The notes: generated by a model from the sequence alone, not told the origin. Shown: positions 35,054 through 53,645, counted from the first letter of the stretch. The stretch is DNA of 64,000 nucleotides from an uncultured Thermoplasmatales archaeon (GCA_964445525.1 CAYULA010000018.1:36-64035), one strand, 5' to 3'. Numbers and translations are program-made.

Positions 35054-35061
35054 TTCAATCC

Positions 35062-35766
35062 TCAGGCTATTTGATACAACTCGAGTTTTGTTTTATATTC
35101 CTTCCAACTGGGAAGAACCAGGTCCAGTAATCGATAATACTCTTTCTGATGGTTCGGAACCTTCAAATGAACCAATTCGTGGAAAATGACGTATTCAATG
35201 CAGTAGGAAGGTGTCCTTATCAACTCGAGGTTGAGGTGTATTCTATTCTTTCCATGAACACAGCTGCCCCATCTCTTTTTCATTCTCTTGATTTTCATCT
35301 CCGGTCGTTTTATTCCGTGTTTGGTTACAACCTTCATCGCTTCATCCAGTATCTCATTGAACTTTATCCGGGCGTGATGTCTGTACCAATCATATAGAAG
35401 AAGTTCTACCATCTCGGGAGATCTATTTCTGGTATGAACCTCGATGAATCTCCCCTTCATTTTGACATTGATTGTTTCTGATTCGATGACCTTCAACCTG
35501 TACTGTCTTCCGAGGTAGCGGTGTGTTTCTCCACTGACATATCTTTTATTCAGATCCTCCTTCGGATACTGTCTAAAGTGAAGTCTTTTCTTCACAACCC
35601 ACCTGCCCCTCTTGTTGACGATTTCCAGTACCTTCTTGATATCGAGGTCCTCAGGTGCCCTGACTTCCACCGATCCATCCGGTTTGACCCTCGTTTCAAG
35701 GGTTTTTCTATTTGATCTCACAAGCTTGAAGGGGATCCTCTGATTTCCGTATCTTATCTCGTTCAT
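35062..35766 (-). CDS. DUF45 / YgjP-like (M48-related) zinc metallopeptidase
   Basis: HExxH in FHELVHLKVPNH, preceded by RWGSC. Its start overlaps the hsdR stop in an ATGA arrangement. Confidence 0.8.
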   Translation of the reverse strand: MNEIRYGNQRIPFKLVRSNRKTLETRVKPDGSVEVRAPEDLDIKKVLEIVNKRGRWVVKKRLHFRQYPKEDLNKRYVSGETHRYLGRQYRLKVIESETINVKMKGRFIEVHTRNRSPEMVELLLYDWYRHHARIKFNEILDEAMKVVTKHGIKRPEMKIKRMKKRWGSCVHGKNRIHLNLELIRTPSYCIEYVIFHELVHLKVPNHQKEYYRLLDLVLPSWKEYKTKLELYQIA

Positions 35767-38700
35767 GAAGCGTACCTTCTCCTTGCAATGTCCATTACCC
35801 TTTCCAGGATCAGATCGATATCGTCGAATTCGAGATGGAGGTTTTCTTTGTCCATCAAAAAATCCGATATTTCCCTCATCATCTTCTTCTGAACATCATC
35901 CCTCTTCTGCCAATCAACGATCCTGTTATCCCTGATTATCTGATCAATGGCCATTGCCAGATTGGCGGAGAGCTCTTTTGCGGGTTGCATTGTATTGTCT
36001 TTGTTCTTTGGGTCGGAGAGAACGCTGAAAGTAACTCCATAGAATGCTTTAGCGATGTCATTTCCTTCCAGGATCTCCGGTTCGTCTTCGTCCTTTCTGT
36101 TGATCACATGATCCCTGATCCTCATGGCTCTTCTGAAGTATTCGTTTTCATCGATCCTCTGCTGGCGATAGCTGTCAATTGCTTCCTTAATCAGATCGGA
36201 GAATTTCTTGTAAAAGGCCGGATCCTCTTCCCATTTATCCTGAATGGATTTGAGTGTTCTATGGGCTATTGTGTCTGCCTGGGATGCTTTACCTCTTAAT
36301 TTTGCGATCTCCTTTTCGAATTTCTCCTTGTCGAAGATGTCCACTTCCTTGGTGATTATCTCCACCTTGTCAGAGGTCACGTAGGTGTCCAGAAGTTTCT
36401 TGATCTTCGGTTCGTACTCGCTGATATCAATAACTTCGGCATATCTCTTCTTGACTGAGGCTCTGAGTTTCTGGAAGAAATGAAGGTCATCCTTGTATCT
36501 TTGAATTGTTTCGGGTTTTTGGTCCTCGAAGAATTTGGGAGTGGATAGTGCAACGGAAAGCGTTCTGGAAAACAATGAGAGTCTTTCGTAGAATGCATCC
36601 CGTATCTCTTTGTCCCCGAGAAATACCTCGTACTCCTCCTCGTCTTTTTTATTTTTTATTTCCTTGAATATGTCCCACACATCCGAATGTCTCTGAGGGA
36701 GTTTCCTGATTTCTTCCAAAATATTTGTAAGAGTGCCTTCGAGGTCTTCCTGTTCGAATTCTTCCAGCGCAGAGTAGGTTGTAAGTGCCTTGTCAAGTTC
36801 TCCCAGAATACCTGAGTAATCGATTATGTAACCGTGGTCCTTTCCTTCCTTGATCCTGTTGACCCTTGCTATAGCCTGGAGTAGAGTGTGCTCCTTCATC
36901 TGCTTGGCCAGGTATAGGATTGTATTGTTGGGGGAATCAAAACCGGTTAGCAGTTTGTCAACCACGATCAGGATCTCCGGTTCCTCCCCGTACTTGAAAT
37001 CGTTGACTATCGTGTCGTTGTAATCATCCTCGTTTCTGAATCTCTCCATCATTTTGGACCAGAACCTCTGGACCCTGTCCTCCACTTCATCCAATGGGTC
37101 TTCATGACCTTCCCTGGTGTCCGGTGATGAGATCACAACCTCGGAGATCACATCCCCGAAATCATCCAGATATTCCTTGTATTTCAATGCGGCAAGCTTT
37201 GAAGGGGTTGCTACCTGAGCTTTGAATTGTGTTCCCTTCCAGTTCCTTCTGTAATGTTCGCTTATGTCGAACGCAATCATGTGTATCTTCTGATCGGAAG
37301 AGTTCAATTGGGATATTCTGGAATATTTCTTTTTGAGATCGGTTTTCTGTTCATCGGTGAGGCCTTTGGTAACTATATCGAACCAGCTGTCAAGGGAATC
37401 CATGTCAACCTTTTGGGGAACATGTCTTCCCTCGTAAAGTAATGGAACAACCGCTTTGTCCTTTACAGCCTGGTCAATGGTGTATTCGTCGATGAACCCG
37501 CCAAATCTCTGGGCTGTGGACTTTTCACTCTTCATCAATGGAGTTCCCGTGAATCCGATGTAGCAAGCATTGGGAAGGATCTGCCTCATCCTCGCATGGG
37601 ATTCGCCGTACTGGGATCTGTGACTCTCATCCACGAGAACGAAGATGTTGGGATCCTCGATGGGAGATTTTTGTGATTTCTTCAGTGCCGAGACGAATTT
37701 GTCGATGACGGATGTGATCACAGTGGTTTTATTCTGTTTTAACTGCCTGTAAAGATCTTCCCCGGTCCTTGCTTTGTGAGGTTCCATTCCGCAGTTCTTG
37801 AAGGTGCCTTTTATCTGCTTGTCGAGATTGATCCTGTCTGTAACGATCACGATCCTGGCATTGGGTATGTCCCTGTCCATGGCGAGGACCTTTGCAAGCC
37901 AGACCATGGTAAGTGATTTTCCGGATCCCTGCGTGTGCCAGATGACCCCTCCCTTTCTCTTCTTTGAATCCTCAAATGTCTTTAATCTCCTCATGGTTTT
38001 TTTCACTGCGAAATACTGCTGGTATCTGGCGATCTTCTTTATTCCTCCGTCGAATATGATGAACTTCCTTGTCAGTTCCAGCAATCGATCTTTTCTGAGT
38101 AGGGAATGGATGGTCCTGTCCTGTTCCGTTATCTTTCTCCCTTCCGTTTCAAAGCTGTCAAAATAATCCCAGACGTAGCGAAACCTGTCGCTGAAAAGTT
38201 TATTTTTTATTGCCTGTGACAGGGGGGTGTTAATCAGATGTTCTAGCTCTTCTTCGAAATCTTCCTTTTCCTTCCATACCGACCAGAACTTCGCGGGAGT
38301 GGTTGCTGTTGCATATTTTGCTTCATTTTTGGATATTCCCAACAATATCTGTGAGTAGATAAAGAGCCTCTGGATCTCGTTCTTTTTCTGATTTCTTATG
38401 TGCTGTGAGACCGCTTCATCGATGGAATCCTTTTCATCGGGCCTCTTGCATTCGATGACCACCAGAGGTATTCCGTTTACGAAGAGCACGATATCCGGCC
38501 TTCTGTGGCCCTTTCCGTCATCTTTTTCGACCTCGAATTCCTCGGTGACGTGGAAATAATTGTTTTCAATATTATCCCAGTCGATGTAGTTCATGGTGAA
38601 ACTTCGAATGTATCCCTTTATATTCTCCTCGAAGCTCTTTCCGAGACACATCAGATCGTAGAGGTCCTGATTGGTCCTCCCCACGTTATCTATCATCACA

Positions 38701-38945
38701 TCGTCCAGGGCCTTTACCGCGTTTGTGATATTCCTGTTGGAGAAGGCATATTCGTCTTCAAGATATTCGAATCTGTTCTCCCTGAGCTTTTTTTCGAGTA
38801 TTGACGTGAGAACGACCTTCCCTTTCTTGTTTTCGCGAAGGTCAAGGGCCTCCTCCGGTGTGAGATATTCATACCCCATTTTGATGAGTAATTGTAATGC
38901 AGGTATCTGCGAGATATGATCCTCGATAAATGATGGGATGTCCAT
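35763..38945 (-). CDS. hsdR: Type I restriction enzyme, R subunit
   Basis: N-terminal PD-(D/E)xK (RPDIVLFVNGIPLVVIECK) and helicase motif I (HTQGSGKSLTM). Motif II (VLVDESHRSQ) and later SF2 motifs follow. The start is ATG 38945, with GAGGAGG 7 nt upstream; the track start 38981 overlaps the upstream gene. Confidence 0.95.
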   Translation of the reverse strand: MDIPSFIEDHISQIPALQLLIKMGYEYLTPEEALDLRENKKGKVVLTSILEKKLRENRFEYLEDEYAFSNRNITNAVKALDDVMIDNVGRTNQDLYDLMCLGKSFEENIKGYIRSFTMNYIDWDNIENNYFHVTEEFEVEKDDGKGHRRPDIVLFVNGIPLVVIECKRPDEKDSIDEAVSQHIRNQKKNEIQRLFIYSQILLGISKNEAKYATATTPAKFWSVWKEKEDFEEELEHLINTPLSQAIKNKLFSDRFRYVWDYFDSFETEGRKITEQDRTIHSLLRKDRLLELTRKFIIFDGGIKKIARYQQYFAVKKTMRRLKTFEDSKKRKGGVIWHTQGSGKSLTMVWLAKVLAMDRDIPNARIVIVTDRINLDKQIKGTFKNCGMEPHKARTGEDLYRQLKQNKTTVITSVIDKFVSALKKSQKSPIEDPNIFVLVDESHRSQYGESHARMRQILPNACYIGFTGTPLMKSEKSTAQRFGGFIDEYTIDQAVKDKAVVPLLYEGRHVPQKVDMDSLDSWFDIVTKGLTDEQKTDLKKKYSRISQLNSSDQKIHMIAFDISEHYRRNWKGTQFKAQVATPSKLAALKYKEYLDDFGDVISEVVISSPDTREGHEDPLDEVEDRVQRFWSKMMERFRNEDDYNDTIVNDFKYGEEPEILIVVDKLLTGFDSPNNTILYLAKQMKEHTLLQAIARVNRIKEGKDHGYIIDYSGILGELDKALTTYSALEEFEQEDLEGTLTNILEEIRKLPQRHSDVWDIFKEIKNKKDEEEYEVFLGDKEIRDAFYERLSLFSRTLSVALSTPKFFEDQKPETIQRYKDDLHFFQKLRASVKKRYAEVIDISEYEPKIKKLLDTYVTSDKVEIITKEVDIFDKEKFEKEIAKLRGKASQADTIAHRTLKSIQDKWEEDPAFYKKFSDLIKEAIDSYRQQRIDENEYFRRAMRIRDHVINRKDEDEPEILEGNDIAKAFYGVTFSVLSDPKNKDNTMQPAKELSANLAMAIDQIIRDNRIVDWQKRDDVQKKMMREISDFLMDKENLHLEFDDIDLILERVMDIARRRYAS

Positions 38946-38947
38946 TT

Positions 38948-39793
38948 TCAATCCTCCTCTTCTTCTTTGATTATTTTCCAATGACCTCCTCTTGGAGGGC
39001 CTATACGTTTTATGAATCCTTTTTGTTTAAGTTCAGAAATAACTTTTTGTGTGTTTCTGTGATTTATTCCGATTTTCTTGGACATCTTCCTTGTTGTAAT
39101 TTTATTGTTTTTCTCAACCAGTTCCAAGATTTTTAGTTGTGTCGAATTAAGGACCATTACGTTCTGATCTACGTCCTTTTCTATGTCCCAATTAATGGAA
39201 TTGTCCATCAGTTTATTTATCTGAACAGGATTCAATTGCCAGTATCCGCTTCTATCGGAACCAACTCGCAGAAGGCATTTATTTTTTTTCAGAAATGAAA
39301 GATATTTCTGGATATTTCGTTGATTAATTCCAATTATTTTTGATAATTCCCTTGAAGTGATCTCGCGGTTTCCACCGATCAATTCCAGGATGGAAATATG
39401 AGTATTATTCAATTTCTTTACGTCTTTTTCTATGTCCTGATCTACGTCTTTTTCTACTACCTTTTCATGTTCACCCATGGGACGTAGAAAAGTGGTGTAG
39501 AACGCCCTCCCGATCTCTTTGAATTCTGAATCAGGTTCAAGTTTCAATATTTTCATTATTCCTCTTCCCCAGTTCTCCACGAAATGAATATCCTTGAACT
39601 TCTGTGCAAGGAGAGGATTCCTTCTGTCCGATACGTTTCCTTTTCTTATCTCCTCTACAGTCATTCTATCCTTCGACAGAATGGGATCAGACGTGATTGG
39701 GTCTATCACATATCTCATTTGGGAAGTTGAACGCTTTAACTCCGTTGTTTCCGTTTCCGTTACGTAGAATCCATTGATCATTTCAATTTTCAT
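38948..39793 (-). CDS. AlbA_2-family C-terminal fragment-like protein with two tandem wHTH modules
   Basis: RRNPLLAQKF...ENWGRGIMKIL resembles the HATPase_c_4 tail of AlbA_2/RecG-like regulators. It is followed by an internally duplicated approximately 65-aa wHTH (LN(N/S)T.(I/L).ILEL...ITxRxxSKxIGIN.RN.QK). The N-terminal AlbA_2 domain is missing. Confidence 0.65.
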   Translation of the reverse strand: MKIEMINGFYVTETETTELKRSTSQMRYVIDPITSDPILSKDRMTVEEIRKGNVSDRRNPLLAQKFKDIHFVENWGRGIMKILKLEPDSEFKEIGRAFYTTFLRPMGEHEKVVEKDVDQDIEKDVKKLNNTHISILELIGGNREITSRELSKIIGINQRNIQKYLSFLKKNKCLLRVGSDRSGYWQLNPVQINKLMDNSINWDIEKDVDQNVMVLNSTQLKILELVEKNNKITTRKMSKKIGINHRNTQKVISELKQKGFIKRIGPPRGGHWKIIKEEEED

Positions 39794-39802
39794 CTCCTCA
39801 TT

Positions 39803-41131
39803 TCATGTATCATCAACCTTAACCCTCGTCTTCCCCGTCAGAAGTTGTTGCATAAGTCCTTTCTTTATTTCCGATAGGACCTTCTTTCTTTCATACAAAT
39901 TTTCGATCACACCATCAAGATCGAACAATGTTTTTGCAATCATTTTTTGTTCATTAATTTCAGGCATTGGTACCTGTATTCTCTTTAAACCACTTGGGTA
40001 AATATGAACTACAGAATGTCCTTGCCCCTTCTTTCGACTTTGTGAATAGAATATTTGGCTATTTAGAAGAAATGAGAGGAATTGAGAATCAGATTCCTTG
40101 TTTCTTAAAATAACGATATCTCCACCCGCAAAGGCATCTTCATTTCCTAGGTAGGCTATGGATTTGCCTATTTCATCAAGTGTTTCACCTGAACCTGCAA
40201 ATAAGACATCACCTGTTTTAATAGGTTCAGATTCATAAGTTGATTGTTCACTGATGTATGTTTTAAAACTATGAGTATAGAACCGATCAGTTGTATATAT
40301 TTGGCCATACGTGATACATGGAAAGCCTTCTGACCTCAGTTCACTCTTTGAAACTCCTTTTCCCCTATAGAATTGACCAAGTTCATCAAGAGTCACCACA
40401 TCCCAATCCAGAGGGACCTCTCCGATCTTTGTATCCTTGAATCCCTCTTTCTCGATGAATTCCTTGAACCGGACCTTCCCCGTGAGAAGCTGCTGCATCA
40501 ATCCTTTCTTGAGGTTCTCCTTCTCCTTGATAAGGGCCTCCGTCTTTTCAATAGCAAGGTCCCACGTTGAGAGGACCTCTGCGATCTTTTTTTGTTCAGG
40601 GAGTGGTGGAATAGGTATTAATAATGACTGGATTCTTGATAAGGCCAACTTTGGTTGGGCATTATTAGTTCCTGATTTTTTGATTAAGTATTGAATAGAA
40701 TTTGACATCATAATATATTTCAAAAAAACTTTATTAATTATGATATTTGTTAATTTATTTGCGTTTTCCGTTAGATTGGCACCATCTAGGTCAAGGGGAA
40801 TTTCTCCAACAATTCCTAATGTTCCAGCAACTGAAATAAACAAATCATCTTTTGATATTGTGTATCTTCGTATTGATGGAAAAACCTCCTCTGGGACATA
40901 ATGAATATCATCTGTTTTTACTCCTCCCATGTGCATGTCAACAACTCTGATATATGGATGTGAAGTCTTAATATCTGTAACAAATGTCCCTTTTGGTAAT
41001 CGTTTTCCACCTTTTACTTGGCAGATATCTTCAATTCTTTTTACATCCCAAGCCTTAGGAATCATACCAATTTTTGTCTCTTTATAATCATTACTTTCTA
41101 TCGACTTCATAATTCGCTTCACCTTCTTCAA
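39803..41131 (-). CDS. hsdS: Type I R-M specificity subunit (two target-recognition domains)
   Basis: Two variable TRDs are separated by conserved helices LPEQKKIAEVLS...LKKGLMQQLLTGKVRF and EQKMIAKTL...IKKGLMQQLLTGKTRV. Confidence 0.9.
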   Translation of the reverse strand: MKKVKRIMKSIESNDYKETKIGMIPKAWDVKRIEDICQVKGGKRLPKGTFVTDIKTSHPYIRVVDMHMGGVKTDDIHYVPEEVFPSIRRYTISKDDLFISVAGTLGIVGEIPLDLDGANLTENANKLTNIIINKVFLKYIMMSNSIQYLIKKSGTNNAQPKLALSRIQSLLIPIPPLPEQKKIAEVLSTWDLAIEKTEALIKEKENLKKGLMQQLLTGKVRFKEFIEKEGFKDTKIGEVPLDWDVVTLDELGQFYRGKGVSKSELRSEGFPCITYGQIYTTDRFYTHSFKTYISEQSTYESEPIKTGDVLFAGSGETLDEIGKSIAYLGNEDAFAGGDIVILRNKESDSQFLSFLLNSQIFYSQSRKKGQGHSVVHIYPSGLKRIQVPMPEINEQKMIAKTLFDLDGVIENLYERKKVLSEIKKGLMQQLLTGKTRVKVDDT

Positions 41132-41603
41132 TTCCTCTTCTAGCGATTATAAACGCCCATTTAGGAGGTTGGGGGCTTTTCTTGTTCAGTTCATCTCGTT
41201 TGTTATTAAGGTCCATAAGTTGTTGATATGGCTCATTTTTTGGTTTTTTCCGATCAATTCCAATCTCACGGAATATTCTAGCTCTATTTCTTAGTGAGTT
41301 GTATTTATTACCAGCTTCCAGATGAGAGCTAGCTCTTCCATTTGGATTAAGGAAAGTAGCGACGGCTGTTAGAGCTGTTACAATAATTGCTAGTATTCCT
41401 GCAATCAAAGTATGATTTGAAAAATCGGAAAGAGCCGATGCACCAGAAATAGCTGCTAAGATGGCTGTTGGAACTCCGATCCAAATGTGAAATCTTCTCC
41501 AAAAGGAAGCTGTGACAAAATGGCCTTTTGCAGAATAGAGGCTATCTTCCTCAATTCTCTTCGCTTCCTTCTGAATTCTATTCTTATCCATATTATCAGA
41601 CAT
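41091..41603 (-). CDS. SLATT-domain 2-TM protein (predicted membrane effector)
   Basis: The N-terminal helix with YSAKGHF is followed by two TM helices (HIWIGVPTAILAAISGASAL, LIAGILAIIVTALTAVATFL). A helical tail (AGNKYNSLRNRARIF) follows. It starts 3 nt after the SMODS stop. Confidence 0.7.
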   Translation of the reverse strand: MSDNMDKNRIQKEAKRIEEDSLYSAKGHFVTASFWRRFHIWIGVPTAILAAISGASALSDFSNHTLIAGILAIIVTALTAVATFLNPNGRASSHLEAGNKYNSLRNRARIFREIGIDRKKPKNEPYQQLMDLNNKRDELNKKSPQPPKWAFIIARRGIEEGEANYEVDRK

Positions 41604-41606
41604 CCG

Positions 41607-42476
41607 TTAATAAGCTGGGAATTTTTCAGCAAAGACCATATTCCACCAATAAAATGCATCTTGGATTTTACCTGCCTGCTCAGCATTTCTTGCCTTATCG
41701 GCTCGGATTAAAGCAGTTTCGATTTTAGATAGAGCATCTTCTCTTTTCGCCTCAGTGTTGCATGGATGAATATATCCAGAGATCCCGACTGGATCATGTA
41801 ATGATGCAAGACCACAATCTCGAAGAATCTTCAATATCTTCCTCACATCATATGAATATTGTATTCGGTCTTCTCCATAGGCATACTTTGCAATCTTCAT
41901 CTCAAGATATATTGATGATATGGGAACATTTCGTAGAAATTTCCAAGCCTTCGCGAAACGGATCAATGGTTTTACCTTTTTACTCAGTGCTTTATTTACT
42001 TCTGTAACATATGCATTCTGAGCATCTGGGGAGGTTCTCATCCATCCGTCAAAACTATTAGGAATTTCATAGATCTTGTATCCCCCAATTGTTTTATTTA
42101 TGTCATCAGCAGGTACGACCTCAGTGCTTTCACAACCATTTGTGCCGAAAGGAACAAGTACCGCAGGTTTTCGAACTGTCACCCCAGTATAAGGAAATCT
42201 TACATCTAGTGTATTTCGGATTTTCCTCAAAGTTGATGCAGAGTTTTGATTGAGGTTCTCAGTTGGGATCACAGCAAAATAATCTACATCGCTGTATCCG
42301 TGTATACTTGTACCATTCCCAAATGAACCGGTTTTAAAGAAACGAGTCATTCCATAGTTATTCATCAAACATTGTTTAATGGTCAATCGATGCCTCTCTG
42401 CTGCCTCGGATTCTCCACATGTGGGTATTAATCTTTGATGAAAGATTCGAAAACCTTCTTCAACGGTCTTAGCCAT
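41607..42476 (-). CDS. SMODS-type (pol-beta fold) nucleotidyltransferase
   Basis: FKTGSFGNGTSIHGYSDVDYFAVIP provides the GS-x9-13-DxD catalytic motif. A third acidic strand STEVVPADD follows. The N-terminal helix pattern F..F...L.PT..E is typical of SMODS. Confidence 0.7.
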   Translation of the reverse strand: MAKTVEEGFRIFHQRLIPTCGESEAAERHRLTIKQCLMNNYGMTRFFKTGSFGNGTSIHGYSDVDYFAVIPTENLNQNSASTLRKIRNTLDVRFPYTGVTVRKPAVLVPFGTNGCESTEVVPADDINKTIGGYKIYEIPNSFDGWMRTSPDAQNAYVTEVNKALSKKVKPLIRFAKAWKFLRNVPISSIYLEMKIAKYAYGEDRIQYSYDVRKILKILRDCGLASLHDPVGISGYIHPCNTEAKREDALSKIETALIRADKARNAEQAGKIQDAFYWWNMVFAEKFPAY

Positions 42477-42876
42477 ATAATTTCACCCCTCTTCCAATTA
42501 TTTCATTTTGAATGTAATAATAAGATTGAGGTACAACAAATCCCTTCGATTGATCGATCAGTCCATCATCTATTGAACACCGATCGAGATCAGTAACCTG
42601 AATAGCATAACCAGAGTTGGAATTTCGGAAATATTCTTTGAACTCTCTTTCTGATACACCTGAACCTTCTTTAAAGCGATCCCATAAGTCATCAGGAGGA
42701 CCTTCAACGATTTCACCAGGTTTGAATGATGCAACGATCCTCTTCACCGGCGATGTTGAATAAATAAAGACTCGGTCAACATCCTTCTTCCAGATCCTTT
42801 TCCGGAACTCATATTTCTTCTCTCCGGAGAGGACCTTCTCAACATATTTTGGTTTCATGGAAAGGAGGACATTCAT
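42469..42876 (-). CDS. ASCH (PUA-like) domain protein
   Basis: MNVLLSMKPKYVEKVLSGEKKYEFRKR is the characteristic ASCH N-terminus. Its stop overlaps the SMODS start by 8 nt. Confidence 0.8.
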   Translation of the reverse strand: MNVLLSMKPKYVEKVLSGEKKYEFRKRIWKKDVDRVFIYSTSPVKRIVASFKPGEIVEGPPDDLWDRFKEGSGVSEREFKEYFRNSNSGYAIQVTDLDRCSIDDGLIDQSKGFVVPQSYYYIQNEIIGRGVKLYG

Positions 42877-44024
42877 TGGAGGGCCTCCTCTTCATTTATT
42901 CCACTTTCATGATTCTCCTTCTTCTCAGTCTGCTTTCTCATCTCTCTCTTAAGCTCCCCCACCGTTGGTAAATATCCCTTCAATTCTTTGGGCATCTCAG
43001 CTGTCAAATTATATTCCGATACTCCAATGGGAGTAGAGTTGTTCCTGAGTGCATATTCGGCTATCAATTCCTTCTTTGTTTTGCAGAGGATCAATCCGAT
43101 ACTTGGGTTGTCGGTAGGGTGCGTTAGCAGATCATCCACGGCTGAAAGATAGAAGTTCATCTTACCGGCAAACTCGGTCTTGAACGTACCGGTCTTTAGA
43201 TCTATTACAATGAAGCATCTGAGTTTCAGGTGATAGAACAGCAGGTCTATGTAGAAGTCGTCACCTTCGAGTTCGAAATGATATTGGTTTCCGACGAAGG
43301 AGAAGCCTACTCCAAGTTCCAATAGAAACTTTCGAATGTGATCTACCAGAGCGTTCTCAAGTTCCCGCTCGGATGCATCAGTGGAAATGGTTAGGAAATC
43401 AAAGACGTACGGGTCCTTGATCGTCTGTTTTGCAAGGTCTGATTGTAATGGAGGTAGGCTTGCATCGAAGTTCGTCACTGCTTTGTCCTGGCGGTGGTAG
43501 AGACCGGTCTCTATCTGGTGAACAAGGACTGCACGGGACCAGCCGTATTCAATGGTCTTCTGCGCATACCAGAGACGTTCGATAGGCTCTTTTACCTTTT
43601 GTACCAGAACAATATTATGACCCCATGGTATTTCTGTCACAAGTTGTGACAGTTTTAATGTGGATGGGTCTGTCACAGCCCGTGACAGTTCTTCAATATC
43701 TTCTGTCCAGGCAAGGAAAAAAGCCCTCATACGCCATATATTCAGGGAAGAAAATCCCCTGATACCTGGGAACTCTGATTGAATATCCTTTGATAATCGC
43801 TCAACCACAAACTTGCCCCAACCCTGTTTCTTTTGCTGTGCAACGATAGATCTTCCGATCTCCCAGTATAGCTGGATCAATTCGCGGTTGACAGTGATTG
43901 CTGCTTTCACCTGTGCCGTTCTGATCCTGTTTTTCAGATCCAACAGCAATTCATAATAGCCCTCTGGTAGGCCTTGAACGTGTTCTCCCTCTGGGAAAGA
44001 TAACTCTGGTTCTTTATCTTGCAA
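42873..44024 (-). CDS. DUF1016 / YhcG-family PD-(D/E)xK nuclease
   Basis: The N-terminal NRELIQLYWEIGRSI...GWGKFVVERLSKDIQSEFPGIRGFS is present. The C-terminal nuclease core is YIDLLFYHLKLRCFIVIDLKTG. The start codon is apparently TTG at 44024. Confidence 0.85.
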   Translation of the reverse strand: MQDKEPELSFPEGEHVQGLPEGYYELLLDLKNRIRTAQVKAAITVNRELIQLYWEIGRSIVAQQKKQGWGKFVVERLSKDIQSEFPGIRGFSSLNIWRMRAFFLAWTEDIEELSRAVTDPSTLKLSQLVTEIPWGHNIVLVQKVKEPIERLWYAQKTIEYGWSRAVLVHQIETGLYHRQDKAVTNFDASLPPLQSDLAKQTIKDPYVFDFLTISTDASERELENALVDHIRKFLLELGVGFSFVGNQYHFELEGDDFYIDLLFYHLKLRCFIVIDLKTGTFKTEFAGKMNFYLSAVDDLLTHPTDNPSIGLILCKTKKELIAEYALRNNSTPIGVSEYNLTAEMPKELKGYLPTVGELKREMRKQTEKKENHESGINEEEALQ

Positions 44025-44141
44025 TCATTTCTCCTCCCAGATAATATTTTGACTTGGTCCCCGTTTCCGGAACTCGTATCGTTTATCTCCGGAGAGGACC
44101 TTTTCAACGTATTTTGGTTTCATGGAGAGGAGGACGTTCAT
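44025..44141 (-). pseudogene. ASCH gene 5' fragment (38 codons), duplicate of 42763-42876
   Basis: It translates to MNVLLSMKPKYVEKVLSGDKRYEFRKRGPSQNIIWEEK. About 80 nt align with the intact ASCH 5' end with about 10 mismatches. Confidence 0.6.
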
Positions 44142-44347
44142 GTGAGTACCTCCTTCAAACTATGTGTGGCAATTTCTGAAAGATTCTTGAAAGGGATAAT
44201 CGCCAAGTAATCACCAACTAATCGCCAACAGGACCTAATCTGCCATTTATTCAGCCCAAGATCGAATAGGAGAACGTTCATTGGAGGTCCTTCATTTCCC
44301 TTATGGTTTTGATCCGGTTTTCCGTTCACTTTTTCTCCTCCTTTCAC
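44138..44347 (-). pseudogene. doubtful ORF containing a third, shorter copy of the ASCH start junction
   Basis: An internal GPPMNVLL is encoded at 44266-44300, a region that resembles the RBS + ATG junction of the ASCH gene. The rest has no recognisable family. Confidence 0.3.
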
Positions 44348-44359
44348 AAGATAATTCGA

Positions 44360-44797: not shown

Positions 44798-44801
44798 TTT
44801 C

Positions 44802-45191: not shown

Positions 45192-45200
45192 CCCGTTTCA

Positions 45201-46621: not shown

Positions 46622-46899
46622 GCTGACGCAGCTCCTTCTAATTTGAAGTGATCACATAAGATGACCATATTGCGGAGATTCGCAATATGGTTGTACTGAA
46701 TCTGGACCATTTTGTCCGATTGGACAATATTGTGTGAAGGGGTTAGAACCATTTCGTTGATGTCAACAAAATGGTTTTGAGGTGGATTGTTGACCAATTC
46801 GTGTGGATACACGATATGGTTCTGGTGTTTGTGTGTAATCATATATCGGAAATGCTCGCAATGGTCTGAAATTGAACGAGTAAAGTCAATATCACTCAT
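46618..46899 (-). CDS. hypothetical 93-aa protein with 14-15-aa internal repeats (NH(I/F)V...(M/L)V), coincident with DNA palindromes
   Basis: The frame is open across an AT-rich region and overlaps both neighbours (8 nt and 4 nt). Its coding status is uncertain because the repeats are dyad-symmetric at the DNA level. Confidence 0.4.
   Translation of the reverse strand: MSDIDFTRSISDHCEHFRYMITHKHQNHIVYPHELVNNPPQNHFVDINEMVLTPSHNIVQSDKMVQIQYNHIANLRNMVILCDHFKLEGAASA
46664..46820. repeat. four phased imperfect palindromes with conserved ACCA(T/A)(A/T)T ... A(T/A)(A/T)TGGT ends
   Basis: H1 46664-46691: ACCATATTGCG-gagatt-CGCAATATGGT, 11/11 pairs. H2 46706-46733: 10/12 pairs. H3 46747-46776: AACCATTTCGTTGA-tg-TCAACAAAATGGTT, 13/14 pairs. 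H4 46793-46820: ACCAATTCGTGT-ggat-ACACGATATGGT, 10/12 pairs. The centres are 42, 42 and 45 bp apart. Confidence 0.75.
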
Positions 46900-48259
46900 C
46901 CTCTATCACCTCCCAATTTCCTTTCTTTGTTGAACCCGACCTTCTAATTTTACCCCTTCTTTTTAAATTTCTGATATGGTAATACACACCATAATAGGAA
47001 AGGTCAAGCACCTTTGATATCTCATTGATAGAGATGTCTGGATTATTTATCATCAAAGCCATAATTTTCTCAGGAATATCTCTTGTAGTTTCTTTTGTAG
47101 TTTCTTTTGTAGTTTCTTTTGTAGTAGCCTCAATTTCTGTTATCTTTCTGAAAACCACATCAAAATTATTTCCATTCTCGAAAAGGTCCAATTCAATCTC
47201 CGGATAATCTATCAATTCCCTTCGGATACGGACCATGCCACTTCCGTATTTCTCGATCTCTTTTACCAAATAAAAGCATTCTGCGATGAGAACATTTCTC
47301 AATGAAGATGAATAATTATCTCTTTTCAGATCATCAAGTGTGATGTCACCATACAATTTTCCAGGGCTGGATATCAGGATGTGATCATCGAATACCTTGA
47401 TGATGATATCGGAAGGATTCCGATAATCTCTATGAACTATTGCATTGATGACAGCTTCCCTTAAAGCTTCCAGGGGATACTCCCAGATCTCTTTCCTCTC
47501 CGGTTCTCCTGTAAATTCAAACCGTATACTGATCTGCTTTTTGATGGCCCACATCACCTCATCGACCGCTTCAAGAAGAGGCAGATGGATCATGATGTCA
47601 TCAATTATGACCGTCGGGGTTTTAAATCTTCCAATATGTATTCCATGAACTGGCCTGCTCTTTGAAAAAAGAAGCTCAGCTGCCACTGTGGGCCTATCAT
47701 CTTTTACCAGTTCGATCTTTTCAAGGGATCCAATTGGAGTCCCATCAAAATGGAACCTGCCGACCTTATTTACTTTATCAATGAACTTCTCTATTTTGTC
47801 AAGATCAAGTTGTTCAAATGTACGACAATAGTGAGATGGAGAGGAATCCCAGGAGTATTGGATTGCCATCATGTAAAGTTCTGTTACCTCATCTATCTCC
47901 TTCTGATGGTCGCTGTTATGCTTTCTAGTATAGTATCTACCTTTGAAAGAAATCGGCTTGAAGGAAGATTCCTTCACATCTATTATTACTACACGTTTTC
48001 CGTTTGCTTCAGAGATTGCCATGTCTGGAATTATTGAAGGATTTGTTTTCGTCTTGATCTCATTGGTCCAACTCTGCAATGATTCTGGACCAACATCAAT
48101 ACCCAATATTCTACCTTTGTTATTCACCCCCAAAATCACTTTCCCACCCTTTGAATTGGAAAAAGCGGAAAGAGTCCTGATAGTTTCAGCTCCGAATGAG
48201 GATTTGAATTCGACCTCCCCGTTTTCAAGGTTTTCTAGCAACTTATCCAGTTCATTCAT
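46892..48259 (-). CDS. AlbA_2 (Schlafen-like) + HATPase_c_4 + C-terminal wHTH protein (RecG-like putative regulator)
   Basis: The N-terminal ENGEVEFKSSF...LSAFSNSKGGKVILGVNNKGRILGI is an AlbA_2 motif. The central region has REAVINAIVHRDY and EKYGSGMVRI, followed by a C-terminal wHTH. Confidence 0.8.
   Translation of the reverse strand: MNELDKLLENLENGEVEFKSSFGAETIRTLSAFSNSKGGKVILGVNNKGRILGIDVGPESLQSWTNEIKTKTNPSIIPDMAISEANGKRVVIIDVKESSFKPISFKGRYYTRKHNSDHQKEIDEVTELYMMAIQYSWDSSPSHYCRTFEQLDLDKIEKFIDKVNKVGRFHFDGTPIGSLEKIELVKDDRPTVAAELLFSKSRPVHGIHIGRFKTPTVIIDDIMIHLPLLEAVDEVMWAIKKQISIRFEFTGEPERKEIWEYPLEALREAVINAIVHRDYRNPSDIIIKVFDDHILISSPGKLYGDITLDDLKRDNYSSSLRNVLIAECFYLVKEIEKYGSGMVRIRRELIDYPEIELDLFENGNNFDVVFRKITEIEATTKETTKETTKETTRDIPEKIMALMINNPDISINEISKVLDLSYYGVYYHIRNLKRRGKIRRSGSTKKGNWEVIEDE
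47085..47125. repeat. 12-bp tandem repeat GTAGTTTCTTTT x3.4 inside the AlbA_2 gene (encodes (TKET)n linker)
   Basis: Read directly at 47085-47125. The repeat is in frame and lies between the HATPase_c_4 region and the wHTH. Confidence 0.85.
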
Positions 48260-48274
48260 TTACTCAAATCCCAC

Positions 48275-49783
48275 CTATTCATACAATCCCAGCTCCTTCA
48301 GGTATCCTACCATCTTCTCCCGGACCTCTGCAAGCTCTCCCTCGAGTTCCTCTATCCTTCTCTGGGTCGCAGGGATGTCGATCTCTTCCTCTTCCTCGAA
48401 AGTATCCACGTATCTTGGTATATTGAGATTGAAGTCATTCTCCCTGATCTCATCGAAGGTTGCCCTGTAGGAGTATTTGTCAATGGTCTTGTAATCCTTG
48501 TAGGTGTTGTGTATCTTATCGATATCCTCGTCTCTCAGCTTGTTCTGCTTTTTCCCCTTCTGGAATTCCCTGGAAGCATCTATGAAAAGGACATCGGTTG
48601 TATCCCTTCCCTTTTTATAAACCAGGATCGCAGCAGGGATTCCCGTTCCAAAGAACAACTGTGATGGAAGCCCTATCACAGCATCGAGGAGGTTCTCCTC
48701 GATAAGTTTCTTCCTGATTTTCCCCTCGCTGGATCCTCTGAAGAGGACCCCATGAGGAACGACAACCCCCACTCTTCCATCATTTTCATTCATTGTCTCG
48801 ATCATATGAGTTATGAATGCATAGTCTCCCTTGCTTTTTGGAGGAACTCCCCTGTGGAACCTCCTGAACCGGTCGTCTTTTGCATCTTCGGCGCCCCATT
48901 TATCCAACGAAAAAGGAGGATTGGCAACCACAATGTTGAATTTCATCAGTGTGTCGCCCTCGAGCAATTTGGGGTTGTTGATGGTATCTCCCCATTCGAT
49001 CTGGGCATTGTTGACACCATGCAGGAACATATTCATCTTGCAAAGTGCCCATGTTGAACCATTGAGTTCCTGACCGTAAAGGGCAAAATCCTCCGAACCC
49101 ACCTCCCTTGCCACCTTGATCAACAGAGAACCGGATCCGACGGTGGGATCACAGATCCTGTCACCTTCTTCCGGGTCCACAAGTTTCGATATTAATATGG
49201 ACACTTCAGCCGGAGTGTAGAATTCTCCTCCCTTTTTTCCAGCGTCACTTGCGAAGTGGGAGATAAGATATTCATAGGTATTTCCGATTACATCGATGTT
49301 TCCGATACGTGACGGCCGCAGATCCAGCTTGGGATTTGAGAAATCTTCGATGAGATTCTTCAAGCGCCTGTTTCTATCCTTTGTCTGCCCGAGGGCGGTC
49401 TCCGAATTGAAGTCGATATTCCTGAAAACACCCTCCAATTTCGCTTTATTTGCCTCTTCTATCCTTGCCAGGGCTATGTTTATTTTCTCTCCTATATCAT
49501 TGTCATTTCTGTGTTTGTAAATGTAATCATAGGAACAATCTTCAGGCAGGATGAAGTTCTCGAACCTCATCATGTATCTGATCCTTTTCTCATCCCTTCC
49601 GTATTTTTCCTCATATTCTGCCACTCTGTCCTTCCACAGATCGCTGATATATTTGAGGAAAAGAAAGACCAGTATGTAATTCTTGTATTCAGAAGGATCA
49701 ATGACACCTCTGAAGGTATCACAGGCTCTCCATGCGACATTGTTTATCTCGGTTTGATCAATATTATCCCCCACTCTAATCAC
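48275..49783 (-). CDS. hsdM: Type I R-M DNA methyltransferase subunit
   Basis: It has an HsdM N-domain, the SAM motif DPTVGSGSLL and the catalytic motif VVANPPFS. Confidence 0.95.
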   Translation of the reverse strand: MIRVGDNIDQTEINNVAWRACDTFRGVIDPSEYKNYILVFLFLKYISDLWKDRVAEYEEKYGRDEKRIRYMMRFENFILPEDCSYDYIYKHRNDNDIGEKINIALARIEEANKAKLEGVFRNIDFNSETALGQTKDRNRRLKNLIEDFSNPKLDLRPSRIGNIDVIGNTYEYLISHFASDAGKKGGEFYTPAEVSILISKLVDPEEGDRICDPTVGSGSLLIKVAREVGSEDFALYGQELNGSTWALCKMNMFLHGVNNAQIEWGDTINNPKLLEGDTLMKFNIVVANPPFSLDKWGAEDAKDDRFRRFHRGVPPKSKGDYAFITHMIETMNENDGRVGVVVPHGVLFRGSSEGKIRKKLIEENLLDAVIGLPSQLFFGTGIPAAILVYKKGRDTTDVLFIDASREFQKGKKQNKLRDEDIDKIHNTYKDYKTIDKYSYRATFDEIRENDFNLNIPRYVDTFEEEEEIDIPATQRRIEELEGELAEVREKMVGYLKELGLYE

Positions 49784-50372
49784 TCCCCTGAATGATATTC
49801 AATGATACCTTTTCAATGATTTTTTTCTTATGGTCGATTATATCTTCTGACAGCCTCTGTTCTTCTTTTATTAGCTTGTCCAGCATAATTATCCTCTCCT
49901 GGTTTTTCAATGATGGGACGGGGATCTCCATATTTTCAATTGTTGTTTTTTTCAAGAAAGGAACACTTGTTCCTCCCATTCTATTTTTCAGGTATCTCTG
50001 TATCTTCCTGGTTTTGAAGTACCAAAGAAGATAGTCAGGATCAATGATATTCTTATCAATGTTAATTATGAGAAATTGATCCGTTACGGCATATGATCCT
50101 TTTGGAAAATTCACTTTAAAAAATATGGGTCTTGATGATTTGGATTTTACGATGACGTCATCCGGCCCGATTATTGCAGATGTTTTGATGTCTGAAAACC
50201 TCACCCTGTGCAGTTTATGAAATTCAATATCCGAGGCCTGATCAACATCAGATGGTTGAATCAGGTTGACCTCTCCTCTCGGGAGATTCCTGATGCCATT
50301 CCTGAAAAGATGGCCCTGCCTTATGGTTGCAATATCAGCCATCTTTTTGTTGGAAGTAAATGAATACTTCAT
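49776..50372 (-). CDS. half-size Type I specificity subunit (single TRD)
   Basis: One variable domain followed by the conserved helix PSLKNQERIIMLDKLIKEEQRLSEDIIDHKKKIIE. Its stop overlaps the hsdM start by 8 nt. Confidence 0.7.
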   Translation of the reverse strand: MKYSFTSNKKMADIATIRQGHLFRNGIRNLPRGEVNLIQPSDVDQASDIEFHKLHRVRFSDIKTSAIIGPDDVIVKSKSSRPIFFKVNFPKGSYAVTDQFLIINIDKNIIDPDYLLWYFKTRKIQRYLKNRMGGTSVPFLKKTTIENMEIPVPSLKNQERIIMLDKLIKEEQRLSEDIIDHKKKIIEKVSLNIIQGSD

Positions 50373-50391
50373 GGATTGGATATGGAAAAGC

Positions 50392-50401
50392 TATTATTTA
50401 A
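50392..50401 (-). promoter_or_regulatory. TATA-like box (minus strand TTAAATAATA) for the island operon
   Basis: The proximal edge is 20 nt upstream of ATG 50372, which suggests a leaderless or very short-leader transcript. Confidence 0.35.
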
Positions 50402-50438
50402 ACTCGCCCTATAAAAAACGAAGTAAAACCATACTTCT

Positions 50439-53567: not shown

Positions 53568-53645
53568 TGCAGTACGAACTTATCATTCCTGTGTATTTTT
53601 AATGAATCCCGGAAAATGGAGGGGAATGAAGGAATGAAATTGAAG

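What the first reader, a model, noticed from the sequence alone, without database searches (positions are those of the whole stretch)
41091..42876. ASCH - SMODS nucleotidyltransferase - SLATT 2-TM module (minimal CBASS-like signalling system) embedded in an archaeal R-M operon
Seen in sequence:
- ORF 41607..42476 carries the pol-beta NTase catalytic signature (GSFGNGTSIHGYSDVDYF plus a downstream acidic strand). Its N-terminal helix pattern is that of SMODS enzymes.
- ORF 41091..41603 has the SLATT layout: YSAKGHF, two TM helices, then a helical tail.
- The genes are coupled. The ASCH stop overlaps the SMODS start by 8 nt, the SLATT start lies 3 nt after the SMODS stop, and the SLATT 3' end overlaps hsdS by 41 nt.

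Established knowledge: SMODS+SLATT pairs were predicted by comparative genomics (Burroughs, Aravind and colleagues) as nucleotide-second-messenger conflict systems. They are analogous to CBASS with 2-TM effectors. PUA-like domains such as ASCH and EVE are recurrent sensors of nucleic acid or modified bases in defence contexts.

Inference: this could be a three-gene sensor-synthase-pore unit. An ASCH partner, an archaeal host and nesting inside a Type I R-M operon are not the textbook configuration. To my knowledge the combination is not experimentally characterised.
Basis: partly seen in the sequence, partly recalled or inferred. Interest (0 to 1): 0.75.

Follow-up and report, generated by a model that had tools for sequence, protein, structure and literature searches.

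The report
Two-gene CBASS inside archaeal restriction operon
This is an ordinary two-gene antiviral alarm system (a signal-making enzyme plus a membrane-pore protein) sitting as a swappable cassette inside an archaeal restriction-modification operon, and the neighbouring ASCH gene belongs to the operon rather than to the alarm system.

Summary
All three ORFs exist at the stated coordinates, with the stated motifs and overlaps.

**Cyclase and effector.** The 289-aa protein is a full-length CD-NTase: Pfam SMODS above threshold, PADLOC CBASS cyclase E=1.6e-112, fold TM 0.80 to P. aeruginosa CdnD. The 170-aa protein is a SLATT_4 2-TM effector: NCBIfam 139 bits against a cut-off of 55, PADLOC CBASS 2TM E=1.7e-65. 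Together they form a standard Type I CBASS. Cyclase-SLATT and CdnD-4TM operons have already been shown to block phage.

**ASCH.** The 135-aa protein is a genuine ASCH protein, ZmASCH-like. The sensor-synthase-pore triplet is not supported:
- None of 80 genomes carrying this cyclase has an adjacent ASCH gene.
- None of 80 metagenome loci carrying this ASCH family has a cyclase or SLATT gene. 55 of them pair it with PDC-M11A, often between hsdM and hsdS.
- A syntenic relative (L087) has DUF1016-ASCH-wHTH-HsdR with no CBASS.
- ASCH followed by the cyclase recurs only in two fragmentary contigs of the same operon lineage.

**Embedding.** Embedding in Type I R-M recurs for this cyclase family (16/80 loci). 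It is a published theme.

**Verdict.** New member of a known kind; low interest.

The parts
41607..42476 (-). CD-NTase (SMODS-type CBASS oligonucleotide cyclase), 289 aa. Predicted catalytic residues: G50-S51, D63, D65, E119.
   Evidence: Pfam SMODS 35.7 bits, above the gathering score of 26.5. PADLOC Cyclase PDLC00776 E=1.6e-112, covering 1-289 of the protein and 1-286/287 of the profile. More than 1100 homologues. G50, S51, D63 and D65 are invariant and E119 is at least 90% conserved in 29 homologues. The family profile hits PaCdnD 6p82 at E=1.3e-27. The AF2 model has TM 0.80 to PaCdnD, and all 50 listed fold matches are CD-NTases.
41091..41603 (-). SLATT_4 two-TM CBASS effector, 170 aa. TM segments at about 38-59 and 65-86, with a cytosolic helical tail.
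   Evidence: NCBIfam SLATT_4 139.2 bits against a cut-off of 55. PADLOC CBASS Effector 2TM PDLC00712 E=1.7e-65. Pfam SLATT_4 23.3 bits, below the gathering score of 27. Hydropathy profile. Orthologous 2TM genes lie downstream of cyclase homologues in L001, L003, L011 and L023.
42469..42876 (-). ASCH protein (GKER-type, ZmASCH-like; PADLOC PDC-M11B family), 135 aa. A resident accessory gene of the R-M operon, not a CBASS component.
   Evidence: PADLOC PDC-M11B E=9.3e-44. AF2 model pLDDT 84, TM 0.81 to ZmASCH 5y6b/5gus. Family profile against ZmASCH E=1.1e-24; Y39 and S118 align with ZmASCH Y47 and S128. Neighbourhood surveys.
39529..42710 (-). Variable segment that L087 lacks: the ASCH 3' half, the cyclase, SLATT, full-length hsdS and the 5' part of the wHTH gene. 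Lowest G+C in the operon.
   Evidence: blastn synteny between the window and L087 breaks at window 42710 and resumes at 39528. G+C is 0.380, against about 0.45 for hsdM/hsdR and 0.48 for the flanks.
39803..41131 (-). Type I R-M specificity subunit HsdS (442 aa, two target-recognition domains).
   Evidence: Pfam Methylase_S E=6.4e-34, two stretches. PADLOC Specificity_I E=4.3e-79.
38948..39793 (-). Protein with a HATPase_c_4 fragment and two winged-helix domains (281 aa).
   Evidence: Pfam HTH_24 E=3.7e-14 and HATPase_c_4 E=1.1e-08. A 179-aa orthologue occupies the same place in L087.
35763..38981 (-). Type I R-M restriction subunit HsdR (1072 aa).
   Evidence: 76% identical to the L087 protein, which carries Pfam HSDR_N, ResIII and T1RH-like_C.
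35062..35766 (-). YgjP-like metallopeptidase, the usual last gene of this operon family.
   Evidence: Pfam YgjP-like E=4.5e-55. Same position in L087 and L176.
42873..44024 (-). DUF1016/YhcG PD-(D/E)xK nuclease (PADLOC PDC-S02), inserted upstream of ASCH.
   Evidence: Pfam YhcG_C E=7.2e-66 and DUF1016_N E=2.6e-42. PDC-S02 E=4.8e-149. Bracketed by 94-nt direct repeats.
44061..44154 (-). Remnant copy of the ASCH 5' end, 85% identical to 42796-42889. A direct repeat flanking the DUF1016 insertion.
   Evidence: the repeat finder family D1. The same duplication is present in L087 and absent from the relatives without DUF1016.
46892..48259 (-). SLFN/AlbA_2 - HATPase_c_4 - wHTH protein embedded after hsdM.
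   Evidence: Pfam SLFN_AlbA_2 E=5.3e-20 and HATPase_c_4 E=6.8e-18.
48275..49783 (-). Type I R-M methyltransferase HsdM (502 aa).
   Evidence: 84-87% identical to the HsdM proteins of L087, L093 and L094, which carry Pfam HsdM_N and N6_Mtase.
49776..50372 (-). Half-size HsdS (198 aa, one target-recognition domain) at the head of the operon.
   Evidence: PADLOC Specificity_I E=7.4e-20. Equivalent 191-201-aa genes lie upstream of hsdM in L093 and L176.

Best explanation
The cyclase (41607-42476) and the SLATT protein (41091-41603) form a self-sufficient two-gene Type I CBASS. It sits as an exchangeable cassette inside a large archaeal Type I restriction-modification operon. The operon reads: half-hsdS, hsdM, AlbA_2, five small unknown genes, DUF1016, ASCH, [cyclase, SLATT, hsdS], wHTH, hsdR, YgjP-like.

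**Shown**
- Family membership of both CBASS proteins.
- Intact catalytic motif in the cyclase.
- 2-TM topology of the effector.
- Absence of Cap2/Cap3/HORMA/TRIP13-type ancillary genes.
- Presence/absence polymorphism of the cassette between related operons.

**Inferred from characterised CBASS systems**
- A viral cue activates the CD-NTase during infection.
- The enzyme uses D63/D65/E119 and Mg2+ to make a cyclic di- or tri-nucleotide.
- The nucleotide is bound by the cytosolic helical parts of the SLATT protein.
- SLATT then oligomerises and permeabilises the membrane, killing or arresting the cell before the virus matures (abortive infection).
- Co-transcription with the hsd genes gives layered defence: restriction first, suicide if restriction fails.

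**ASCH.** The ASCH gene is a resident accessory gene of this R-M operon family. It is ZmASCH-like and of the GKER type, so it probably binds nucleic acid or modified bases. It is the same family as PADLOC PDC-M11B. It works, if at all, with the R-M or DUF1016 context and not with CBASS.
For: **Cyclase.** Pfam SMODS above its gathering score. PADLOC cyclase E=1.6e-112, full length. Conserved G-S...D-x-D...E motif. PaCdnD is the closest solved structure by sequence (E=1.3e-27) and by fold (TM 0.80).

**Effector.** NCBIfam SLATT_4 139 bits against 55. PADLOC 2TM effector E=1.7e-65. Two TM segments.

**Pairing is conserved.** Of 64 downstream neighbours of cyclase homologues in the 80 genome loci, 56 are PADLOC 4TM CBASS effectors and 4 are 2TM SLATT effectors.

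**No ancillary CBASS genes** among the operon proteins scanned.

**ASCH is independent of CBASS.**
- 0/80 cyclase loci have an adjacent ASCH gene.
- 0/80 ASCH loci have a cyclase or SLATT gene.
- 55/80 ASCH loci have PDC-M11A directly upstream. Several read hsdM-M11A-ASCH-hsdS-hsdR, and one reads hsdM-DUF1016-ASCH-hsdS.
- L087 is syntenic from hsdM to DUF3467 but lacks the cyclase, SLATT and hsdS.
- L176 has a different insert in the same slot.

**The cassette has the lowest G+C in the operon**.

**Literature.**
- Type I CBASS is two genes, mostly clade D/E/F cyclases with 2- or 4-TM effectors. EcCdnD12-4TM and EcCdnF04-SLATT6 give at least 10,000-fold protection.
- A lactococcal SLATT_4 Type I CBASS is listed among identified plasmid antiphage systems.
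- ASCH proteins associate with archaeal Type I R-M systems.
- The PDC families were defined by being embedded in R-M/BREX/DISARM systems.
Against: - The ASCH stop overlaps the cyclase start by 8 nt. The same junction is kept in two related contigs, L092 and L094.
- The ASCH C-terminal third is more similar among the three CBASS-linked copies (20-32/45 identical) than to the CBASS-less copies (12/42). The ASCH 3' half and CBASS therefore seem to have been inherited or exchanged as one block in this lineage.
[quoted passage not shown] This hints that ASCH can serve adjacent modules.
- No nucleotide product, trigger or pore activity is known for this exact cyclase-SLATT_4 clade.
- The cyclase model is only moderately confident (pLDDT 69).
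- How a SLATT protein reads a nucleotide is not established.
Confidence: 0.78

Rival explanations
1. Three-gene unit. ASCH senses viral or modified nucleic acid and switches on the cyclase, and SLATT executes.
For: - 8-nt ASCH/cyclase overlap, conserved in L092 and L094.
- The ASCH C-terminal part co-varies with the presence of CBASS.
- ASCH is a nucleic-acid-binding fold. ZmASCH is an ssRNA nuclease.
- ASCH is fused to another unknown domain in L176.
Against: - 0/80 cyclase loci have an adjacent ASCH gene, and 0/80 ASCH loci have a cyclase.
- L087 keeps ASCH without CBASS.
- The three ASCH-cyclase instances belong to one operon lineage (HsdM 86-87% identical).
- Every gene junction in this operon is tight, including DUF1016/ASCH with a 4-nt overlap.
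- Type I CBASS cyclases work without partner sensors.
Confidence: 0.1
2. Guard model, PrrC-like. The embedded CBASS is held silent by the Type I R-M complex and fires when a virus inactivates restriction.
For: - Recurrent embedding of this cyclase family in Type I R-M. 16/80 loci have hsd genes within 8 kb, 12 on the same strand.
- Four loci (L007, L020, L035, L078) are flanked on both sides on one strand. In L020 and L078 the cassette sits tightly between hsdS and hsdR.
- 8 of 47 genes immediately upstream of the cyclase are Methylase_S.
- Precedent: PrrC inside EcoprrI.
Against: - 64/80 loci have no detectable hsd gene nearby, so the cyclase does not need R-M.
- Characterised Type I CBASS respond to virion proteins such as the prohead protease.
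- The embedded TgvAB system acts independently of HsdR.
- Some embedded loci look like one composite operon spread by transfer: L020 and L078 have the same layout.
Confidence: 0.08
3. Inhibitory signalling, Panoptes-like. The cyclase makes nucleotide constitutively to keep SLATT closed, and viral sponges or nucleases that deplete the signal open the pore.
For: Precedent for a minimal cyclase plus 2-TM effector working this way (PMC12657230). The cyclase has no recognisable sensor domain.
Against: - That precedent uses an mCpol (Cas10-palm) enzyme and a Cap15-like beta-barrel effector, which are neither CD-NTase nor SLATT.
- The tested CD-NTase-TM Type I systems behave as activators. Expression of the phage prohead protease scaffold domain induces toxicity only with an active cyclase.
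Confidence: 0.04
4. Non-signalling nucleotidyltransferase (MNT/KNT-type antitoxin or modifying enzyme) next to an unrelated membrane protein.
For: A weak Pfam hit to the MTPAP-like palm domain (17.7 bits, below the gathering score) shows only the generic Pol-beta fold.
Against: - Full-length hits to CBASS cyclase models.
- All top sequence and fold matches are CD-NTases.
- The downstream partner is a CBASS TM effector in 60/64 homologous loci.
Confidence: 0.01

Closest known systems
Type I CBASS with transmembrane effectors (e.g. EcCdnD12-4TM, EcCdnF04-SLATT6; lactococcal CD-NTase + SLATT_4)
   Same: Two genes, with the CD-NTase directly followed by a small 2-TM SLATT effector. No Cap2/3 or HORMA/TRIP13 genes. 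The cyclase is closest to CdnD-type enzymes, and most homologues pair with 4TM effectors.
   Different: - Archaeal host.
- This exact cyclase clade with SLATT_4 is untested, and its product and trigger are unknown.
- The cyclase has no AGS-C domain.
- It is embedded in a Type I R-M operon rather than standing alone.
P. aeruginosa CdnD (Type III CBASS cAAA synthase; PDB 6p82/6p8j/6p8u)
   Same: Closest solved structure by profile (E=1.3e-27, aligned end to end) and by fold (TM 0.80). The DxD catalytic pair aligns (D62/D64 against D63/D65).
   Different: Only about 22% identity. PaCdnD is regulated by HORMA and TRIP13 partners, which are absent here. Its effector is the nuclease NucC, not a membrane protein.
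PADLOC PDC-M11 (A: ~500-aa protein, probably PIN-GNAT-EVE; B: ASCH) and the ASCH proteins of archaeal Type I R-M systems (PMC7641849)
   Same: The window ASCH matches PDC-M11B at E=9.3e-44. It lies inside a Type I R-M operon, as many family members do.
   Different: PDC-M11A is absent from the window. ASCH follows a DUF1016 nuclease instead, as in L087 and L130. The function of the family is untested.
ZmASCH (Zymomonas mobilis ASCH, metal-dependent ssRNA ribonuclease; PDB 5gus/5guq/5y6b)
   Same: 27-28% identity, TM 0.81, profile E=1.1e-24. It has the GxKxxExR motif, and residues equivalent to Y47 and S128 are invariant in the family.
   Different: No activity data exist for the window protein. 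Its context is defence and R-M.
Defence genes embedded in Type I R-M operons (PrrC in EcoprrI; TgvAB in V. cholerae VPI-2; 'guilt-by-embedding' candidates)
   Same: A foreign defence cassette lies between hsd genes, on the same strand and tightly packed.
   Different: The embedded system here is a CBASS. No functional coupling to the R-M enzyme is shown.

Membership tests
CD-NTase / SMODS | Significant match to the family profile over the whole domain | tested here: met
   Pfam SMODS 35.7 bits against a gathering score of 26.5, residues 5-161. PADLOC cyclase PDLC00776 E=1.6e-112, 1-289. NCBIfam CBASS_cyclase_b 111 bits, which is below its equivalog cut-off of 200.
CD-NTase / SMODS | Pol-beta catalytic signature G[S/G]...[D/E]x[D/E]... 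plus a third acidic residue | tested here: met
   G50, S51, D63 and D65 are invariant and E119 (TEVVPA strand) is at least 90% conserved in 29 homologues. D63/D65 align with PaCdnD D62/D64.
CD-NTase / SMODS | cGAS/DncV-like two-lobed fold | tested here: met
   AF2 model (pLDDT 69, pTM 0.61) has TM 0.80 to PaCdnD. All 50 listed matches are CD-NTases.
CD-NTase / SMODS | Synthesis of a cyclic oligonucleotide | not testable with these tools
   Needs enzyme assays and LC-MS.
SLATT (SLATT_4) effector | Match to the family profile above its curated cut-off | tested here: met
   NCBIfam SLATT_4 139.2 bits against 55. PADLOC 2TM effector E=1.7e-65. The Pfam SLATT_4 model gives only 23.3 bits against 27.
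SLATT (SLATT_4) effector | Two adjacent TM helices with N- and C-terminal cytosolic helical regions | tested here: met
   Hydrophobic segments at 38-59 and 65-86, a loop of 5-6 residues, and net positive flanks.
Type I CBASS | Cyclase plus one effector, no ancillary Cap2/Cap3, HORMA/TRIP13 or QueC/OGG genes | tested here: met
   PADLOC scans of 17 of the 18 operon proteins found only the cyclase and the 2TM effector as CBASS parts. HsdM and HsdR were identified by homology instead.
Type I CBASS | Cyclase-effector adjacency conserved in homologues | tested here: met
   60 of 64 downstream neighbours are PADLOC CBASS TM effectors: 56 4TM and 4 2TM.
Type I CBASS | Protection against viruses by abortive infection | not testable with these tools
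   Shown only for other Type I CBASS operons.
Three-gene ASCH-SMODS-SLATT system (proposed) | Co-occurrence of the three genes across unrelated genomes | tested here: not met
   0/80 cyclase loci and 0/80 ASCH loci. Adjacency is seen only in L092 and L094, which belong to the same operon lineage. L087 has ASCH without CBASS.
ASCH domain | PUA-like beta-barrel fold, GxKxxExR motif and profile match | tested here: met
   Pfam ASCH is below its gathering score (18.6 against 21.2). The family profile matches ZmASCH at E=1.1e-24. Fold TM is 0.81 with pLDDT 84. G18, K20, E23 and R25 are invariant.
PADLOC PDC-M11 | Both components A and B present and adjacent | tested here: not met
   B matches at E=9.3e-44. 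No window protein matches PDC-M11A. The gene upstream is DUF1016 (PDC-S02).
Type I restriction-modification system | hsdM, hsdS and hsdR in one locus | tested here: met
   HsdS by Pfam and PADLOC. HsdM and HsdR by 76-87% identity to Pfam-annotated proteins of L087 and L093.
PrrC-type guard of Type I R-M | Effector held inactive by the R-M complex and released by anti-restriction factors | not testable with these tools
   Only the embedding is shown. There is no homology to PrrC.

The most novel reading that the evidence does not exclude
In this archaeal Type I R-M operon lineage, the conserved ASCH N-terminal domain and its 5' DNA segment may act as a docking point for exchangeable output modules. 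Three states of the slot are seen: CBASS here and in L092/L094, a fused 290-aa unknown domain in L176, and nothing in L087. Under this reading the ASCH protein, which is ZmASCH-like and binds RNA or modified bases, would feed an infection signal into whichever module follows. That would make this a CBASS with a dedicated nucleic-acid sensor. Alternatively, the embedded CBASS could guard the R-M enzyme in the manner of PrrC.
Probability: 0.1. Interest if true: 0.65.

Novelty: new member of a known kind. Interest (0 to 1): 0.25.

Why it matters
As it stands, this is one more Type I CBASS, and standard defence-annotation tools would call it automatically. Its modest value lies in three points:
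- It documents this CdnD-like cyclase family with TM effectors in several archaeal lineages.
- It shows that the family is repeatedly embedded in Type I R-M operons.
- It gives a clear natural presence/absence comparison of the cassette within one archaeal operon family. That comparison could be used to test whether embedded CBASS systems are functionally coupled to restriction.

If ASCH did turn out to gate the cyclase, it would be a rare case of a known input sensor for a minimal CBASS.

Tried and rejected
- **Rfam scan of the window:** no RNA family. Only one tRNA-Arg was found, at 53645-53719.
- **Literature search for 'PDC-M11':** nothing describing it. Its make-up had to be deduced from PADLOC hits. 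Pfam gave only sub-threshold PIN and GNAT signals.
- **Papers not held:** Burroughs et al. 2015 (NAR) and the published Cell Host Microbe Type I CBASS screen were not available. The preprint of the screen and later Aravind and Koonin papers were used instead.
- **Possible ASCH-cyclase fusion:** P0241 (420 aa) was checked as a possible Rosetta-stone fusion. Its C-terminal 290 aa are unrelated to the cyclase.
- **MNT/KNT antitoxin reading:** rejected.
- **tblastn with the window SLATT:** found only 5 of 80 downstream genes, because most are 4TM effectors of a different family. PADLOC profiles resolved this.
- **Not done:**
  - The host was not identified below 'archaeon'.
  - The sigma-70 promoter scan was not run because the host is archaeal.
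  - The third large protein search, the representative-library search and the viral collections were left unused because the answer did not depend on them.

Full report
**1. Observation**

One search confirms three minus-strand ORFs at the reported coordinates: 42469..42876 (135 aa), 41607..42476 (289 aa) and 41091..41603 (170 aa). Both quoted motifs, GSFGNGTSIHGYSDVDYF and YSAKGHF, are present.

- ASCH and the cyclase overlap by 8 nt.
- A 3-nt gap separates the cyclase stop from the SLATT start.
- SLATT overlaps hsdS (39803..41131) by 41 nt if hsdS starts at its first possible codon, a TTG. Later in-frame ATGs would shorten or remove that overlap.

The DUF1016 gene (42873..44024) also overlaps the ASCH start by 4 nt. 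Tight packing is therefore a property of the whole operon and does not single out three genes.

The region lies in a low-G+C island at about 34-51 kb. The window is archaeal. It has a replication factor C large subunit above the NCBIfam cut-off. It is also syntenic with L087, which runs into ribosomal S27a/S24e genes.

**2. What the proteins are**

*Cyclase (289 aa).*
- It passes Pfam SMODS: 35.7 bits against a gathering score of 26.5.
- It matches a PADLOC CBASS cyclase model end to end at E=1.6e-112.
- It has more than 1100 homologues.
- G50, S51, D63 and D65 are invariant in 29 of those homologues, and E119 is nearly so.
- A family profile finds P. aeruginosa CdnD as the best solved relative, at E=1.3e-27 and full length.
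- The AlphaFold model has moderate confidence (pLDDT 69). It superposes on CdnD at TM 0.80, and every one of the 50 listed matches is a CD-NTase.

*SLATT (170 aa).*
- It passes NCBIfam SLATT_4: 139 bits against a cut-off of 55.
- It matches a PADLOC CBASS 2TM effector model at E=1.7e-65.
- The Pfam SLATT_4 model falls just short: 23.3 bits against 27.
- Two hydrophobic helices (38-59, 65-86) with positively charged flanks fit the SLATT layout.

*ASCH (135 aa).*
- It misses the Pfam ASCH gathering score: 18.6 bits against 21.2.
- It is nonetheless a real ASCH protein. Its model (pLDDT 84) matches ZmASCH at TM 0.81.
- Its family profile matches ZmASCH at E=1.1e-24.
- The GxKxxExR motif and the counterparts of ZmASCH Y47 and S128 are invariant in the family.
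- In PADLOC it is PDC-M11B, at E=9.3e-44.

**3. Does the cyclase family travel with ASCH?**

A scan of one genome per species returned 80 loci with cyclase homologues at 48-65% identity. They come from many bacterial phyla and from Bathyarchaeia, Methanoregula and Halobacteria.

- No locus has an ASCH gene next to the cyclase. One has an ASCH gene 3 kb away on the opposite strand.
- The downstream gene is conserved. Of 64 callable neighbours, 56 are PADLOC 4TM CBASS effectors and 4 are 2TM SLATT effectors like the window's.
- The upstream gene is variable. Of 47 scanned, 8 are Methylase_S and 7 are a second SMODS cyclase. The rest are scattered, and none is ASCH.

**4. Does the ASCH family travel with CBASS?**

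Homologues of the ASCH protein are often named 'type I restriction enzyme S subunit' by one source. In 80 metagenome loci with ASCH homologues at 40-54% identity:
- none has a cyclase or SLATT gene;
- 55 have, directly upstream and overlapping, a ~500-aa protein that is PADLOC PDC-M11A;
- several read hsdM-M11A-ASCH-hsdS-hsdR (L128, L154, L172);
- one reads hsdM-DUF1016-ASCH-hsdS (L130).

Other copies precede Type III mod/res genes.

PDC-M11A gives sub-threshold PIN and GNAT hits. That fits the PIN-GNAT-EVE proteins of PMC7641849. That paper reports that such operons nearly always encode an ASCH protein. It also reports that ASCH proteins accompany Type I R-M systems, mostly in archaea. The PDC families themselves were defined because they are embedded in R-M/BREX/DISARM systems.

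**5. The operon family**

L087 is syntenic with the window from hsdM to DUF3467. Its HsdR is 76% and its HsdM 84% identical at the protein level. It reads DUF1016-ASCH-wHTH-hsdR. The window has an extra 3.2 kb (42710 to 39528) carrying the ASCH 3' half, the cyclase, SLATT, a full hsdS and the 5' part of the wHTH gene. That segment has the lowest G+C in the operon, 0.38.

| Locus | State of the slot after ASCH |
|---|---|
| Window | cyclase, SLATT, hsdS |
| L092 | cyclase follows ASCH with the same 8-nt overlap; ASCH 83%, cyclase 93% identical; contig then ends |
| L094 | cyclase follows ASCH with the same 8-nt overlap; ASCH 66%, cyclase 86.5% identical; contig then ends |
| L087 | no insert |
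| L176 | ASCH domain fused to an unrelated 290-aa domain, then hsdS and hsdR |

The ASCH N-terminal 45 residues are nearly identical in all copies. The C-terminal third diverges, and it is most alike among the three CBASS-linked copies.

So the ASCH-cyclase adjacency is real. It is confined to one operon lineage in which the slot after ASCH is hypervariable. ASCH is the constant part and CBASS is one of the variable inserts.

**6. Embedding in Type I R-M**

- 16 of the 80 cyclase loci have hsd genes within 8 kb.
- 12 of those have them on the same strand.
- Four (L007, L020, L035, L078) have hsd genes on both sides on one strand. In L020 and L078 the CBASS pair sits tightly between hsdS and hsdR.

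Some of these share a layout and may be one composite operon spread by transfer, so the number of independent events is unknown. Embedded defence genes in Type I R-M are well documented: PrrC, TgvAB and the guilt-by-embedding survey.

**7. Mechanism**

By analogy with characterised systems, a viral cue activates the cyclase. The cyclase makes a cyclic oligonucleotide. The SLATT protein responds by permeabilising the membrane, which aborts the infection.

Type I CBASS operons are described as two genes, mostly clade D/E/F cyclases with 2- or 4-TM effectors. EcCdnD12-4TM and EcCdnF04-SLATT6 restrict phages at least 10,000-fold, and a phage prohead protease domain is an identified trigger. A lactococcal CD-NTase plus SLATT_4 system is listed among identified plasmid antiphage systems.

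The product, the trigger and the way SLATT reads the signal are inferred here, not shown. Three alternatives cannot be excluded by sequence but have little support:
- ASCH as the input sensor.
- A PrrC-like guard of the R-M enzyme.
- Panoptes-like inhibitory signalling.

**8. Verdict**

The ASCH 'sensor' reading is not supported. The archaeal and R-M setting is a known pattern. This is a new member of a known kind and of low interest. A small residual chance remains that the ASCH-linked cassette slot, or the R-M embedding, has functional meaning.

Noticed in passing
window 42796-42889 and 44061-44154 (partial third copy 44268-44304); L087 4671-4817 and 5998-6164: The DUF1016/YhcG nuclease gene is bracketed by direct repeats of the ASCH 5' end: 94 nt at 85% identity in the window, and about 148 nt in L087. 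Relatives without DUF1016 (L092, L093, L094, L176) have a single copy. This looks like an insertion of DUF1016 that duplicated its target, the ASCH start.
   Followed up: partly
L176 9001-10263 (P0241); window 39529-42710: The position just after the ASCH N-terminal domain is hypervariable in this operon family. It holds no insert in L087, cyclase+SLATT in the window and at least the cyclase in L092 and L094 (both contigs end inside it), and an ASCH fusion to an unknown ~290-aa domain with no Pfam match in L176.
   Followed up: partly
window 44360-46899 (-): Five small genes (93, 178, 299, 129 and 177 aa; the last is Cys-rich, and its L087/L092 counterpart carries SEC-C) lie between the AlbA_2 gene and DUF1016. 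They are largely conserved in L087, L093 and L176. None has a significant Pfam or PADLOC match.
   Followed up: partly
L008, L014, L015, L030, L032, L034, L036, L037, L046, L047, L073: Eleven of the 80 cyclase loci carry a second CD-NTase-like gene next to the first, at 21-54% identity to the window cyclase. These are tandem or double CBASS arrangements.
   Followed up: no
L081 4521-6023 and 55 of loci L095-L174: PADLOC PDC-M11A, the usual upstream partner of this ASCH family, is a ~500-aa protein with only sub-threshold PIN_3 (2-116) and GNAT (163-267) Pfam signals. It is probably the PIN-GNAT-EVE protein described in PMC7641849. A GNAT paired with an ASCH (some ASCH proteins are ac4C deacetylases) would suggest a writer/eraser toxin-antitoxin logic.
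   Followed up: partly
window 49776-50372 and 39803-41131: The operon has two specificity genes: a half-size hsdS (198 aa) ahead of hsdM and a full-size hsdS (442 aa) inside the variable segment. L087 shows no full-size copy between ASCH and hsdR. The recognition specificity therefore probably differs between relatives.
   Followed up: no
window 38948-39793 and 46892-48259: The 281-aa wHTH protein starts with a HATPase_c_4 fragment. It looks like a truncated paralogue of the C-terminal part of the AlbA_2-HATPase_c_4-wHTH protein encoded earlier in the same operon.
   Followed up: no
window 34000-51000; tRNA-Arg 53645-53719: The whole R-M/defence operon forms a low-G+C island (0.36-0.46 against about 0.48 in the flanks). 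The only tRNA gene in the window lies about 2.6 kb beyond its right edge. No integrase or attachment repeat was looked for.
   Followed up: no
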